Position numbers: made by a program
Part shown: positions 48,001-64,000 of the stretch, piece by piece
Layout: the number at the start of each line of letters is the position of its first letter
How positions within the stretch are numbered: the first letter of the stretch is position 1
NCBI RefSeq assembly: GCF_030028105.1
Contig: NC_092379.1
Span: forward strand, 21,491,309-21,555,308
Reading direction: 5' to 3'
Length of the DNA: 64,000 nt
From: Mobula birostris
Taxonomy: Eukaryota

Positions 48001-51000
48001 GGGCTGGGGCAGGATCACGGGCGGGGCAGGGTCAGATGCAGGCGCAGACGCACGCGCAGGAGTAGGATCAGGAGCAGAGGTAGCTGGGGCACTGGTGCCC
48101 GAAAAGGGCTCCCTCGGGTTCCGGGCGGCAGGACAGTCCCTCCGAAAGTGCCCCACCTCCCTGCACGCATGGCACCGCGGGCGCTCGGAGCTCCAGTACA
48201 CCTGATAATCCACTCCCTCGTGCCGGACAGTAAACCGGACCTCAACATCGTCCTCTCTTTCCAGCTGCATGAATACCTGACGCCGGAAAGAGATTATGGT
48301 GCGGAGGGTGCGTCTCTTAAATTTGCGTCGGATGGCAGTGATCTCCGACCTTACTTGCCCTAAACGGGCCAGTGGGGGAAGCAAGTCCTCATTTGGAATG
48401 AAAGGCTTAACATGCCCAAGCACGATACGTTGCGTGGGGGCCGTCACCAGCTCCATAGGTAAAAAGATGTTGTCTTCCGTGACTCCCCTGCTTAGGGCCC
48501 GGTGCACTAGCTCTTCATTCGCCAGATAAAACACCGCCTTTCCGAACTCCTTCTCGGTGACCAGAATACCACCTTTCCCAGCAAGGTCCTCCATTGCCTC
48601 CGTACACTTTTCTAGTGTCATTCCAGGGCGCAAAATACATTGCACCCCACGTTCCACCTTCACCGACCGAAACAGGGCGTTGTCCGAGGCCGGGGAGGCA
48701 GCCGCCCTTGCGTAACACCCCGAAGGCCCGCGACTCTCTGGAGACCGGTCCGGCATGCTGGCGCTCTTTCCAGTCCGAGAATCCTAAAGCGGTGCCGGTT
48801 AGAAGTCCTGGAACGAGTCGAATAACTGGCCGGGAAAGTTTGCAGTCGACAGTTCCTCGCTGGCTCGGCGCCAGGAAAGGCTCCGTCGGACTTGCAGAGA
48901 CCCAGGCCGGGAGAGGCCGAAACGTCCTTCCAGATGCTCCGGCACCAACACCGGACGAAAATCAGGAAAACAATGGAGGAGGAACGTTGCCCCGATGTCA
49001 ATGGGGGGGAACGACGGCGTTTGCCTCCGGTTTTGGAGCGAACCGGCTTCCTGGCGAGTTGCCAGCGGCCGCAGCTGGGAGCTACGCAGTTAGCAGCCGC
49101 CAACAAACCCAGCCCAAACCGGCAGTAAAACTCCACACCGAGTTGCCACACCAGCGCCGTCACTCACTCAGTTGTCCAAGAGACTTTTAGAGCCACCTCC
49201 AAAGTATTCCACGAACTTTATCCAGTAGTTTTGCCTCGATTTCTCCCAGCTCAGTCAGCACAGCTCCCCAAGAAGATGGGAGGGAGGCCCATCGGCTGTT
49301 GGAGCATTGTATGATCCCCAATTCCTCCATCTTCTTGAACTCCTCCTTCGCCAGTCGGAGCTTGTCCGGTGGGAGCCTTCGAGTACGGGCGTGGAGGGGT
49401 AGTCCCTGGGTCGGGATGTGGTGCTGTACTCTGTGTCTGGGCATGGCTGCCGTGAACTGCGGTGTCAGAACTGATGGGAAATCCACCAAGACCCTGGTGA
49501 ATTCGTCGTTGGACAGCGTGATGAAGTCCAGGCGTGGGCCTGGCAACTTGGCTTCACTTAGGGAGAATGTTTGAAAAGTCTTGGCGTGGACTAGTTGCTT
49601 CCGTTGCAGGTCGACCAGCAGGCTGTGAGCTCGCAGAAAATCTGCCCCCAGGAGTGGTTGGGCCACGGCTGCCAGTGTGACGTCCCACGTGAACCGGCTG
49701 GAGCTGAACTGTAGCCGCACCGTGCGGGTGCCGTCGGTCCGTATTGTGCTGCCATTTGAGGCCGTCAGGGTGGGTCCCAGTTCTCTGTTGCGGGTGTTGT
49801 AACTGGGAGGTAAAACGCTGATCTTCGCTCTGGTGTCGACCAAAAGGCGGCGTCCTGACTGCTTGTCCCAGACATACAGGAGGCTGTCCTGATGGCCAGC
49901 CGCCGTAGCGATCAGCGGCGGCTGCCCTGCGTTTCCCGGGAATTTGCTGGGTGGTCGACAGCGGCGGGCCTCTGTGTCCCACCACTGGTGGTAGAAGCAC
50001 CATTGGTCGTTGGGCTCCTCACTCCCGTCGCCGGGTTTTGTAGGCTCTGCTGCCGGGCCTGGTCTGGTCTGCCGTTGGGCACGCGGCTTGGTGATCTGTG
50101 CAGACGCCCCTCTCTCCTTCCTGGCATTCCACAGCACATCTGCCCGGGCCGCCACCTCCCGGGGGTCGCTGAAATCTGCGTCGGACAGCAGCAGGCAAAT
50201 GTCCTCGGACAGTTGCTCTAGGAACACCTGCTCAAACATGGGGCAGGGTTTGTGTCCTTCAGCCAGGGCCAGCATTTCGTTCATTAATGCCGACGGCAGC
50301 CTGTCGCCCAGACCATCCAGGTGCAGTAAGCGGGCAGCTCGCTCGCGCCGTGAGAGTCCAAAAGTCCTTATGAGCAGGGCTTTGAATGCTGTGTATTTGC
50401 CGTCCTCCGGGGGCAACTGTATAAACTCCTCAACTTGTGCAGCTGTCTCCTGGTCGAGCGAGCTCACCACGTAGTAGTAATGAGCGGAATCGGAGGTTAT
50501 CGGCCGAATGTGGAATTGGGCTTCTGCTTGTTTGAAGCATAAGCGGGGTCGCAGCGTCCAGAAGCTTGGCAGTTTTAACGAAACTGCATGAACAGATGCG
50601 GCGTTGGTCATCTCTGGTCCAAATATCGTTTGGGCCGTCAGGGTCACCAATTGTAGCGGTGTGCTACACACAGCGCTAGAATAACGACACGTAGTCGGTG
50701 AGTTGGAGTTGCGATAAAAAAGATTTATTCAAACTTCGCGGCCTCCTTTAAAGCCTTCCCCTTCCCGCCCTCCCCGGGCCGGACTGCTGTGGGGAATGCA
50801 TATTCCCAGACCGTTTCGCGCACGGGATTTTCCCGCACTGGTGAAGATGGCCTGGCGCCCTTTTTGGGGGCCGGCCTCTCTGCCGGCGCGCGTCGTTTTG
50901 TGAGCCGGTTCGTGTGTGCTGGAAAGTGGGTCCCCACAATATTGTGGGGAGTGAAAAAGGTTAGCAACAATTACAGTGGGATGTTGATCAGCTGAGTAGG

Positions 51001-63000: not shown

Positions 63001-64000
63001 TTATATTAACTTCCTACCATTGATATTGGGTTCACGGTCCATAGTTCCTCGCATTTTTTTTTGCAACCCTTCTTAAATTAAGGCCCAAAATTATCCGAAC
63101 AGACCCCAGAAAACATCTGAAAGGGCGGAGAACTGAATTCCTGCTCCCTGTGCAAGGTCTCAGCAATGTATTAATGTACAATGTGTTAAATTTTTAACCT
63201 CCCCAGCACACGGCATTGGGAATTATCCAGAGATTATCACTGATGGAGTCTTACATCTTAACCTGTTCTCCAACTCCCTATTTTCACTCCACAGCAGCAC
63301 ATCCATTTTTCTGCCTATTGTCATTTGAACCAATGTGTGCAACCACTTCTATCAGCTCACCCTCCCCACTGCGAATGTTCTGCCATCACTCAGAGACATC
63401 CTCATCTGAATTGTACTCTATTTGTAATTCCTCAGTCCACCTACTCAGCTGATCAAGATCCCGCTGTAATTGTTGCTAACCTTTTTCACTGCCCACAATA
63501 CCGTCTATTTCAGTGTCACCTGTCATCTAATATTCAGGAATATGGGATCAATTCCTATCAGTGAGATGACTTCTTCATCCAGGTATCAGCAGTCATTTGG
63601 ACCAGGATAAGATTCAAAGGAACAATTCTCAGTCCATCTCCAGGGAAATGCCCCCTAATTCAGTGTTGTGTGAAAATATAATTGGATACGGTTTTGGACA
63701 CACACACACACACATTCAGATAGTGGGGGAGATTCCCAGTGCTAAAACACAGGTTGCAGAGCAGGAAGTAAGGAACGTGGCTTGGATTTGTATATTAGTC
63801 CAGTACATTGGCCGTGGAGGGTCTCTCCCTTTTACTCTGTGATCTCTCCCTTCATTCCCTTCCTTGCATTTTTCTCTCAAACTGACCTTTCTCTCTCTCT
63901 TTCCACCTTCTCAAAGCTCATTTAAGACTTTTCAAACCTCCTATTTTTTGCCGCATTCCTCCCTCCCGCCCCATAGCACACGGGGACAGGAGCTGGCTCT

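What the first reader, a model, noticed from the sequence alone, without database searches (positions are those of the whole stretch)
50939..64000. B and C form a large head-to-head palindrome with an asymmetric centre at 58157/58158
The arms are homologous out to ~51 kb and ~63.5 kb. At the centre B stops in the post-protease region and C stops in mid-RT, leaving a 1042-bp spacer. Central asymmetry is the known way long palindromes become stable. The arms are roughly 90% identical in the block I compared, so the structure is old and not recently homogenised.
Basis: partly seen in the sequence, partly recalled or inferred. Interest (0 to 1): 0.65.

Follow-up and report, generated by a model that had tools for sequence, protein, structure and literature searches.

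The report
Old inverted duplication of dead transposons
A stretch of dead, nested transposable-element fragments was copied once in reverse beside itself long ago and both copies have decayed since, so this is an ordinary old rearrangement scar and not a working palindrome.

Summary
The outer ends are 50940 and 63500, the centre is 58157/58158, and a 1042-bp single-copy spacer lies at 58158-59199. Arm identity is 90.9% over 2443 ungapped columns. The arms are not continuous: only three blocks align, covering 34% of B and 57% of C.

The arms are not two copies of one retroelement. They are a mosaic of a non-LTR LINE (X), an unclassified segment (W), and a Ty3/Gypsy element (Y) that carries a nested antisense LINE fragment (Z). 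C shows the same parts in mirror order, so one locus was duplicated in inverted orientation. C is contiguous with ancestral sequence on both sides and is the parent. B is the copy.

B's outer end lies on the only 20-bp perfect palindrome in the window, which is a snap-back mark of a processed DNA end. After the duplication, B gained an 884-bp insertion. In C, a 1.8-kb L1-clade LINE replaced 3.9 kb. Substitutions are symmetric (51 B-derived, 50 C-derived).

The most likely origin is a fold-back or template-switch duplication, with the spacer as the loop. All coding remnants are broken. Interest is low.

The parts
50940..58157 (+). Arm B (derived inverted copy), 7218 bp. It is a mosaic of LINE X, segment W, and Gypsy Y with nested LINE fragment Z. 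Coding remnants read towards the centre.
   Evidence: homology bounds; tblastn maps
59200..63500 (-). Arm C (parental copy), the 4301 bp that have a counterpart in B. C's LINE X continues outward to at least 64000, colinear with copy A.
58158..59199 (-). Single-copy spacer, 1042 bp. It is the continuation of Gypsy Y pol in C, covering the linker after the protease through the end of the RT domain. It is a broken gene fragment.
   Evidence: I9; RVT_1, E 9.9e-8, open stretch 58381-58770 on -; 260 of 298 candidate proteins at E<=0.001, Ty3/Gypsy pol architectures; (colinear with A 17962-18756)
50940..52410 (+). Outer aligned block in B, paired with C 62028-63500. It lies in LINE X between the endonuclease region and the first half of the RT.
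   Evidence: 88.7% over 1491 columns; 1319 of 1455 ungapped columns identical
62028..63500 (-). Outer aligned block in C.
   Evidence: (RVT_1, E 1.8e-7, open stretch 61901-62299 on -)
53295..53428 (+). Middle aligned block in B, paired with C 61899-62032. It lies in the RT of LINE X.
   Evidence: 89.6% over 134
57303..58157 (+). Inner aligned block in B, paired with C 59200-60062. It holds most of Z (on the - strand), the Z/Y junction, and the C-terminal half of the Y protease plus linker (on the + strand).
   Evidence: 90.9% over 864 columns; 782 of 854 identical, 4 gap events
59200..60062 (-). Inner aligned block in C.
52411..53294 (.). 884-bp insertion present only in B and absent from C and A. 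Its flanks look like an imperfect target-site duplication. It has no other copy in the window and no Pfam hit. It inserted after the duplication.
53429..57302 (+). B segment with no counterpart in C (3874 bp). It holds the 3' part of LINE X (to about 54260-54360), segment W (54305-55373), a short LINE ORF1-like piece (55360-55482), the putative 5' LTR of Y (55483-56014, carrying a small hairpin repeat), Y gag (56231-56581), Y 56919-57230, and the 3' end of Z.
   Evidence: colinear with A 11238-12867 and 17847-17944; LTR-like match to A 19918-20103; gag, P0005 residues 95-204
60063..61898 (-). 5'-truncated L1-clade LINE (GC 31%) present only in C. It takes the place of the 3874 bp that B retains.
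   Evidence: open stretch 61367-61897 on - matches LINE-1 ORF2p residues 756-897 of 1275, E 4e-27; GC; no homologue elsewhere in the window
57231..57845 (-). Z in B: the 3'-terminal fragment of a jockey/CR1-like LINE ORF2 (residues 556-712 of a 724-aa relative) plus tail, nested antisense inside Y. Its 5' boundary lies between 57753 and 57845. Its 3' boundary is inferred from where homology to A is lost.
59513..60062 (+). Z in C: the same fragment. Its 3' end is removed by the L1-clade insertion/deletion.
50931..50950 (.). 20-bp perfect palindrome with its axis at 50940/50941, exactly where B-C homology begins. The right half is LINE X sequence and the left half is its reverse complement.
   Evidence: (the only palindrome with half-length >=10 in 64 kb; shuffle expectation 0.08)
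9435..20103 (+). Copy A, an older paralogue of the same X-W-Y mosaic (X and W 9435-12759, Y 12772-12867 and 17847-19887, LTR-like 19918-20103). A 4980-bp block of other LINE material is nested at 12868-17846. A is 75-84% identical to B and C.

Best explanation
This is an ancient, local, inverted segmental duplication inside a transposon graveyard.

The parental locus, now C read on the minus strand, already held a LINE (X). Downstream of X lay an unclassified segment (W), followed by a Ty3/Gypsy element (Y) whose protease region had been hit by a 5'-truncated LINE fragment (Z) in antisense.

A break or stalled fork just past Y's RT domain, at the position now numbered 58158, let the end pair back on its own strand about 1 kb inside. 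It then copied outward for at least 4.3 kb of present-day C sequence, which corresponds to about 6.3 kb before C's later deletion and B's later insertion. This produced arm B, and the 1042-bp fold-back loop was left as the single-copy spacer.

The far end of the copy (50940) was a free DNA end. It snapped back on itself for 10 nt before being joined to unrelated GC-rich DNA.

Both arms then decayed neutrally and independently, about 4.8% per arm. B took an 884-bp insertion. In C, an L1-clade LINE insertion removed 3.9 kb.

Shown directly: the anatomy, the shared junctions, the polarity (C parental), the divergence and the later insertions. Inferred: the fold-back or template-switch mechanism and the order of steps. 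Nothing indicates a present function.
For: Mosaic shared in mirror order.
- LINE X is present in B (P0001 residues 265-349 at 51851-52105, +) and in C (residues 265-500 at 61910-62603, -).
- Gypsy Y is present in B (gag at 56231-56581, protease C-half at 57753-57992, +) and in C (58162-59605, -).
- Z lies antisense inside Y in both arms (57366-57845 on -; 59513-59987 on +). The Z/Y junction lies inside one contiguous alignment of 864 columns with only 4 gap events.
- X lies upstream of Y's putative LTR, so it cannot have moved together with Y.

C is the parent. C is colinear with copy A beyond both ends of the arms: outward to 64000, and inward through the spacer.

Breakpoint mark. The 20-bp perfect palindrome has its axis within 1 bp of B's outer breakpoint, and it is the only palindrome of that size in the window (expectation 0.08).

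Age and independence. Identity is 90.9% and K2P is 0.097. Derived changes split 51 to 50 (binomial P = 1.0). Each arm has a private insertion.

Mechanistic precedent. Fold-back inverted duplications leave single-copy spacers of 766-70,466 bp in 21 of 21 sequenced junctions (PMC3907307, passages read). Very short templated fold-back copies at breaks are reported in yeast (PMC11724301, abstract only).
Against: No inverted microhomology can be read at the central junction: the bases next to the arms, 58158 and 59199, are not complementary. Copy A is deleted at that point, so it cannot show the ancestral sequence. After 9% divergence this test is weak either way.

The DNA left of B (up to 50939) is not the continuation of Y. 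The event therefore involved loss or a further junction, and the order of events there is unknown.

Mild heterogeneity of arm identity (P = 0.033; identical runs of 113 and 105 bp) could mean some later exchange between the arms.

No other genome copy, read set or related species could be examined. A dispersed family of the whole mosaic is therefore not excluded.

The LTR assignment rests on about 180 bp of 74-92% similarity.
Confidence: 0.7

Rival explanations
1. A once-perfect or near-perfect palindrome, with B reaching the axis, was later made asymmetric by a central deletion that removed B's inner kilobase.
For: The final arrangement of arm, sequence present only in C, then arm is what a deletion crossing the axis would also leave. 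Stabilising central rearrangements of palindromes are described by Cunningham et al. 2003. I saw that paper only as a reference-list entry, and it is not held. Its content is recalled.
Against: No remnant of a second axis or of B's inner part is present in the spacer; the spacer matches only copy A. A spacer of about 1 kb is already expected from the fold-back origin itself, so no second event is needed.
Confidence: 0.12
2. B and C are two independent insertions of the same retroelement family that happened to land next to each other in opposite orientation.
For: Related copies of LINE X are common in the window, with at least 6 further places at 68-78% identity. Nested and adjacent insertions are the rule here.
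Against: The arms combine at least three unrelated elements in the same mirror order, and they share the Z/Y junction. X lies outside Y's LTR. B and C are 89-91% identical to each other but only 68-84% identical to every other copy. C's LINE X is cut at its 3' side, which is not how LINEs are truncated on insertion.
Confidence: 0.05
3. B and C are paralogues produced by earlier dispersed duplication (as copy A was) and were brought together later by an unrelated inversion or deletion, not by a single local fold-back.
For: A third, older paralogue (A) of the same mosaic lies 41 kb away in direct orientation to B. This locus therefore duplicated more than once. B also contains a small internal rearrangement: a 424-bp block at 54696-55118 made of a direct and an inverted copy of nearby X/W sequence.
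Against: The parental Y sequence runs without a break from arm C into the spacer and stops exactly where B begins. The simplest account of this geometry is copying from C.
Confidence: 0.1
4. Assembly artefact, such as a chimeric or fold-back read or a mis-joined haplotype.
For: No reads could be inspected. Inverted joins are a known failure mode of long-read assembly (general knowledge).
Against: Artefactual fold-backs give near-identical arms. Here the arms differ at 222 of 2443 aligned sites, split evenly between the arms, and each arm carries a private transposon insertion.
Confidence: 0.03

Closest known systems
Fold-back inverted duplications with a single-copy ('disomic') spacer (Hermetz et al. 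2014, PMC3907307; passages read)
   Same: Both have an inverted copy next to the original, a single-copy spacer of about 1 kb between them (766-70,466 bp in that study), and junctions that are non-homologous or microhomologous. In both, a second junction joins the far end of the copy to other DNA.
   Different: Those cases are megabase-scale, recent and pathological, and lie next to terminal deletions. This one has arms of only a few kilobases, is fixed in an assembly and is about 9% diverged. Its microhomology can no longer be read.
Very short templated fold-back (snap-back) copies at repaired double-strand breaks (PMC11724301; abstract only)
   Same: The 10-nt reverse-complement copy of the arm's own first 10 nt at 50931-50940 falls within the 5-34 bp size class reported there.
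   Different: That work was done in yeast at induced breaks. Here the signature is inferred from one ancient junction.
Ampliconic sex-chromosome palindromes kept uniform by arm-to-arm gene conversion
   Same: Inverted arms separated by a unique spacer.
   Different: Those arms are tens of kilobases to megabases long, more than 99.9% identical, and carry expressed genes. These arms are 90.9% identical and interrupted, and they carry only broken transposon remnants.
Centre-break stabilisation of long palindromes (Cunningham et al. 2003; seen only as a reference entry; paper not held)
   Same: An asymmetric centre.
   Different: No evidence here that symmetry ever existed. The asymmetry equals uninterrupted parental sequence.
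Transposon nests or graveyards in vertebrate-type genomes, and deletions associated with LINE insertion (PMC1920257; listing and abstract only)
   Same: Nested LINE and Ty3/Gypsy fragments. In C, a 5'-truncated L1-clade copy sits where 3.9 kb of older sequence is missing.
   Different: Nothing unusual. Whether the L1-clade insertion caused the deletion or merely followed it cannot be told.

Membership tests
Long DNA palindrome (cruciform- or hairpin-prone inverted repeat) | Two arms that are reverse complements of each other | tested here: met
   Three inverted blocks, E = 0 for the two large ones
Long DNA palindrome (cruciform- or hairpin-prone inverted repeat) | Arms contiguous and nearly identical | tested here: not met
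   90.9% identity. Only 34% of B and 57% of C align, and there are 884-bp, 3874-bp and 1836-bp unmatched blocks
Long DNA palindrome (cruciform- or hairpin-prone inverted repeat) | No spacer or a very short central spacer | tested here: not met
   1042-bp spacer
Fold-back / template-switch inverted duplication | Inverted copy adjacent to the original, with a single-copy spacer that is contiguous parental sequence | tested here: met
   The spacer is colinear with copy A and continuous with arm C
Fold-back / template-switch inverted duplication | Short inverted microhomology at the spacer/copy junction | tested here: inconclusive
   None is visible at 58157/58158 against 59199/59200. Divergence of 9% and a deletion in A make the test uninformative.
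Fold-back / template-switch inverted duplication | Duplicated unit is a piece of a locus, not a single mobile element | tested here: met
   X, Z and Y are unrelated elements shared in mirror order, and X lies outside Y's LTR
Gene-conversion-maintained ampliconic palindrome | Arm identity above 99%, with long shared tracts | tested here: not met
   90.9% identity. The longest identical run is 113 bp. Derived changes are 51 against 50
Ty3/Gypsy LTR retrotransposon (element Y) | RT of the Ty3/Gypsy type | tested here: met
   RVT_1, E 9.9e-8. 260 of 298 candidates at E<=0.001, with a best hit of 63% identity. The listed hits have RVT_1 + RT_RNaseH + rve + Chromo architectures.
Ty3/Gypsy LTR retrotransposon (element Y) | gag and aspartic protease upstream of RT | tested here: met
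   tblastn found gag at 56231-56581 (P0005 residues 95-204) and the protease C-half at 57753-57992 (P0003 residues 135-215, E 8e-13). Pfam itself found neither in the window's open stretches (0 of 150).
Ty3/Gypsy LTR retrotransposon (element Y) | RNase H, integrase and two LTRs | tested here: inconclusive
   Absent from B and C, which are truncated at the centre. RNase H, integrase and chromodomain remnants are present only in copy A (18267-19887). The LTR is suggested only by B 55483-56014 matching A 19918-20103.
Retrovirus / endogenous retrovirus (Retroviridae) | Retroviral-type pol and an env gene | tested here: not met
   The closest relatives are chromodomain-bearing Ty3/Gypsy pol proteins. 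No env-like or retroviral Pfam family appears in 150 open stretches.
Non-LTR LINE (elements X and Z, and the L1-clade block) | LINE-type RT and/or ORF2 C-terminal region, with 5' truncation | tested here: met
   X: RVT_1 and similarity to P0001. Z: 46% identity to P0001 residues 556-712. L1-clade block: E 4e-27 to LINE-1 ORF2p residues 756-897.

The most novel reading that the evidence does not exclude
If the region is transcribed through both arms, the 0.86-kb and 1.5-kb inverted blocks could fold into a long hairpin RNA with a 1-kb loop at 91% pairing. That hairpin could feed small-RNA (endo-siRNA or piRNA-type) silencing of the LINE X, LINE Z and Gypsy Y families. The duplication would then be a retained transposon trap and not a neutral scar. 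The two identical runs above 100 bp would be the only faint hint of constraint.
Probability: 0.04. Interest if true: 0.4.

Novelty: new member of a known kind. Interest (0 to 1): 0.15.

Why it matters
It matters little beyond annotation. The locus shows that what looks like two inverted retrovirus-like copies is one duplicated transposon mosaic. This guards against counting the arms as separate insertions, and against reading a functional or unstable palindrome into the locus.

For people who study structural variation, it is a tidy fossil example. After about 9% divergence, an inverted duplication still shows which arm is the parent. It still has a loop-sized spacer, and it keeps a 10-nt snap-back mark at the distal junction.

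Tried and rejected
I then scanned stop-free open stretches of at least 45 aa instead, 150 of the 158 found. The 8 dropped all start left of 50965.
- Pfam alone gave a misleadingly bare picture. Of 150 stretches, 2 hit RVT_1 and 1 gave a sub-threshold DUF6346 match that I regard as chance.
- My first reading was that the whole inner arm (about 57231-58131) is one LINE insertion absent from A. I rejected it when Gypsy pol proteins matched the + strand at 57753-57992. The 262-aa open frame 57342-58127 on the - strand is Z's C-terminus plus a chance-open antisense of Y's protease. A's lack of this 900 bp is better read as a deletion in A.
- I looked for LTR pairs or inverted repeats bounding the GC-rich block 40.6-50.9 kb and found none of 50 bp or more.
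- I looked for the missing 5' part of B's LINE X on the far side of that block. The LINE at about 37.6-40.6 kb overlaps B in content, so it is a separate copy.
- I tried to read junction microhomology using A. A is deleted there.
- Rfam and tRNA scans of the whole window found 0 matches.
- The second L1-block open stretch (60589-60948 on -) gave only chance-level PDB matches.
Other genomic copies, synteny and host identity therefore stayed unchecked.
- No spliced gene model was involved.
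Full report
OBSERVATION. An inverted-repeat scan of 48000-64000 returns 16 arm pairs. Eleven of them fall on one anti-diagonal that links 50940-58157 with 59200-63500. The innermost pair is 58078-58157 / 59200-59279, with exactly 1042 nt between the arms.

blastn of the region against the whole window and a more sensitive run with word size 7 reduce this to three blocks:
- B 50940-52410 to C 63500-62028: 88.7% over 1491 columns, E = 0.
- B 53295-53428 to C 62032-61899: 89.6% over 134 columns.
- B 57303-58157 to C 60062-59200: 90.9% over 864 columns, E = 0.

Nothing else in the arms aligns. B 52411-53294 (884 bp) and B 53429-57302 (3874 bp) have no partner in C. C 60063-61898 (1836 bp) has none in B. 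So 2460 of 7218 B bases (34%) and 2465 of 4301 C bases (57%) are still paired. The window holds no N.

The picture of two continuous arms is not.

WHAT THE ARMS ARE MADE OF. I scanned 150 of the 158 stop-free open stretches of at least 45 aa between 50501 and 64000 against Pfam. The 8 left out all start left of 50965. Two gave RVT_1 matches: 58381-58770 (-) in the spacer and 61901-62299 (-) in outer C. One gave a sub-threshold match that I take as chance. None matched a protease, RNase H, integrase or gag family.

Protein searches then separated the parts.
- Spacer RT (element Y). It has 260 relatives at E<=0.001 among 298 candidates. The best is 63% identical over 82% of the query. The listed hits have Ty3/Gypsy architectures (RVT_1, RT_RNaseH, rve, Integrase_H2C2, Chromo, gag-asp_proteas), and the named ones are mostly from teleost fishes.
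- Y mapped with four named Gypsy proteins. I used 4 of the 120 listed. They place Y as follows:
  - In B, on the + strand: a gag piece at 56231-56581 and the C-terminal half of the protease at 57753-57992.
  - In C, on the - strand: a stretch from the protease C-half to about 8 residues past the Pfam RT domain (59605 down to 58162).
  - In copy A: RT to chromodomain remnants at 18267-19887.
- Outer arm (element X). It is a different element, a non-LTR LINE. It is similar to a 724-aa protein named as a jockey-type reverse transcriptase from a hake (P0001). In B the match is at 51851-52105 (+), and in C at 61910-62603 (-).
- Long open frame in the inner arm (element Z). The 262-aa frame 57342-58127 (-) caught the eye, but it is not a gene of Y. 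Its residues 95-254 are 46% identical to the last 157 residues (556-712) of the aligned ORF2 in that same LINE protein. Z is thus a 5'-truncated LINE fragment lying antisense inside Y. The rest of the frame is the chance-open antisense of Y's protease.
- Segment W. B 54305-55373 matches only copy A (12124-12759) and is unclassified.
- Putative LTR of Y. B 55483-55611 and 55964-56014 match A 19918-20103, just after A's pol. I read this tentatively as Y's LTR.
- The AT-rich block in C. It has GC 31%. It is a 5'-truncated L1-clade LINE on the - strand: the open stretch 61367-61897 matches LINE-1 ORF2p residues 756-897 of 1275 at E 4e-27.

DUPLICATED LOCUS, NOT TWO INSERTIONS. B reads X, W, Y-LTR, Y-gag, Z (antisense), Y-protease. 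C, read on the other strand, shows X, then the L1-clade block, then Z (antisense), Y-protease and Y-RT.

Three unrelated elements recur in the same relative order and orientation. The Z/Y junction lies inside one contiguous alignment with 4 gap events. X lies upstream of Y's putative LTR, so it cannot have travelled with Y.

B and C are 89-91% identical to each other, but only 68-84% identical to every other copy in the window. Independent insertion of one element is therefore very unlikely.

A third copy, A, spans 9435-12867 and 17847-20103 on the + strand. A 4980-bp block of other LINE material is nested at 12868-17846. A carries the same X-W-Y mosaic at 75-84% identity, so it is an older paralogue.

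WHICH ARM IS THE PARENT. C stays colinear with A beyond both limits of the arms. Outward, C 63501-64000 continues with A 9904-9435, whereas B switches abruptly to GC-rich DNA. Inward, C 59225-58423 continues with A 17962-18756, whereas B stops. C is therefore the parental sequence and B is the inverted copy.

BREAKPOINTS. At B's outer limit lies a 20-bp perfect palindrome, 50931-50950. Its axis is at 50940/50941, and B-C homology starts at 50940. The right half is LINE X sequence shared with C and A. The left half is its reverse complement.

It is the only perfect palindrome with a half-length of 10 or more in the 64-kb window, against 0.08 expected from 100 block shuffles. I read it as a snap-back copy made at a free DNA end before joining. 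Short copies of this kind are reported at repaired breaks in yeast (PMC11724301, abstract only).

At the central junction I see no inverted microhomology. Copy A is deleted at that spot. That test is therefore uninformative.

AGE AND LATER HISTORY. Over the three blocks, 2221 of 2443 ungapped columns are identical (90.9%). There are 118 transitions, 104 transversions and 13 gap events, and K2P is 0.097.

With A as outgroup over the outer block there are 984 sites where all three agree. A further 51 are B-derived, 50 are C-derived, 175 lie on the A or stem branch, and 12 differ in all three. This is even, independent decay.

Identity per 100 columns ranges from 0.83 to 0.97 (chi-square P = 0.033). 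The longest identical runs are 113 bp (B 51967-52079) and 105 bp (57686-57790). The shuffle 95th percentile is 86, and 0.4% of shuffles reach 113. This is at most a faint trace of exchange or uneven mutability, and there is no homogenisation.

After the duplication:
- B received the 884-bp insertion. Its flanks resemble an imperfect target-site duplication, and both C and A lack it.
- C lost the equivalent of B 53429-57302, and the L1-clade LINE sits in its place. Whether the insertion caused the loss cannot be told. Deletions linked to LINE-1 insertion are known (PMC1920257; listing and abstract only).

STATE OF THE CODING REMNANTS. These are counts only, and they are lower bounds because only aligned pieces are counted.
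- Y pol in C: at least 2 frame changes and 7 in-frame stops. It carries one nested insertion (Z) and is truncated at both ends.
- Y in B: the gag piece has 2 in-frame stops. The protease piece is open over the 54-81 residues aligned. It has one nested insertion (Z) and one small hairpin repeat in the putative LTR, and it is truncated at the 3' side.
- X in B: only 85 residues are still alignable, with 1 in-frame stop. It has one insertion and is truncated at the 5' side.
- X in C: 196 residues align in 2 pieces, with 1 frame change. It is truncated at the 3' side.
- Z: open in B, 1 frame change in C.
- Y in A: at least 4 frame changes and 5-6 stops.
Nothing in 50940-64000 is an intact gene.

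MECHANISM. The geometry is a parental sequence running uninterrupted into a single-copy kilobase, followed by its own reverse complement. This is the product expected when a broken or stalled end pairs back on its own strand and copies outward.

In 21 of 21 sequenced human inverted duplications, such a spacer was found. Its length ranged from 766 to 70,466 bp with a median of 3428, and 13 junctions had 2-8 bp of microhomology (PMC3907307, passages read). I did not see that paper's supplements, and they do not bear on the claim.

The 1042-bp spacer fits that range, and the snap-back mark at the distal junction fits a break-repair origin.

It would leave the same final arrangement and cannot be excluded, but it needs an extra event and leaves no trace here. 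The paper usually cited for it (Cunningham et al. 2003) I saw only as a reference entry. It is not held, so my account of it is recalled.

An assembly artefact is unlikely, given 222 differences split evenly between the arms and the arm-specific insertions.

ORIENTATION. X and Y read on + in B and on - in C. The copies therefore converge on the centre with their 3' sides, and 'head-to-head' is a misnomer.

HOST. I do not take the contig for human. It carries Ty3/Gypsy pol remnants closest to fish proteins. It also carries LINE families with a GDSL-esterase ORF and with the ALKBH8_N-type motif after the RT. The host was not identified further.

UNCHECKED.
- other copies in the same genome;
- the orthologous locus in relatives;
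- supporting reads;
- transcription and small RNAs.

VERDICT. This is a real but ordinary feature: an old inverted segmental duplication inside a transposon graveyard. Its polarity is still readable and one junction signature is well preserved. There is no sign of function.

Noticed in passing
window 40600-50939: GC-rich block (55-59% GC) directly left of arm B, with long open frames on the - strand. An 832-aa uninterrupted LINE ORF2 (endonuclease + RT, 44233-46728) is followed by a 360-aa frame with a weak zf-RVT match. There is also a 333-aa frame with a CCHC zinc knuckle, a 494-aa frame with DUF7041 (49190-50671), and a Gypsy RT-RNase H-integrase remnant at 41003-42977 / 40820-41875. It is far younger-looking than the arms. 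No LTR pair of 50 bp or more was found.
   Followed up: partly
window 54696-55118 (inside arm B): A 424-bp block sits inside segment W. It is made of a direct copy of the nearby X/W junction (54699-54895 against 54163-54361, 81%) followed by an inverted copy of X 53687-53917 (54901-55122, 89.6%). This is a small complex rearrangement. Its inverted piece has about the same divergence as the large arms.
   Followed up: partly
window 55673-55853: Small hairpin-forming repeat (arms 55674-55722 / 55769-55817) inside Y's putative LTR. Related copies lie at about 4502-4583, 28599-28734, 29437-29525 and 33125-33214. It looks like a miniature inverted-repeat element.
   Followed up: no
window 12868-17846: Block nested in copy A. 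It holds a LINE with two long open frames (454 aa and 395 aa; RVT_1 plus ALKBH8_N motif) at 14616-17026 (+), and a further LINE RT fragment at 17308-17775 (-).
   Followed up: no
window 30778-31392 (-): 205-aa open frame with a GDSL-type lipase/esterase domain (E 1.7e-13), the kind of ORF1 carried by some LINE clades. A 123-bp piece similar to it lies in arm B at 55360-55482.
   Followed up: no
window 37638-40570 (+): A further, more complete copy related to LINE X, at 69-74% identity. It has an endonuclease frame (38106-39275) and an RT frame (39291-39875). It ends where the GC-rich block begins.
   Followed up: no
arms: The transition:transversion ratio between the arms is only 118:104. Only 22 of the 118 transitions are in a CpG context. 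This is low for neutrally decaying vertebrate DNA and is not explained.
   Followed up: no
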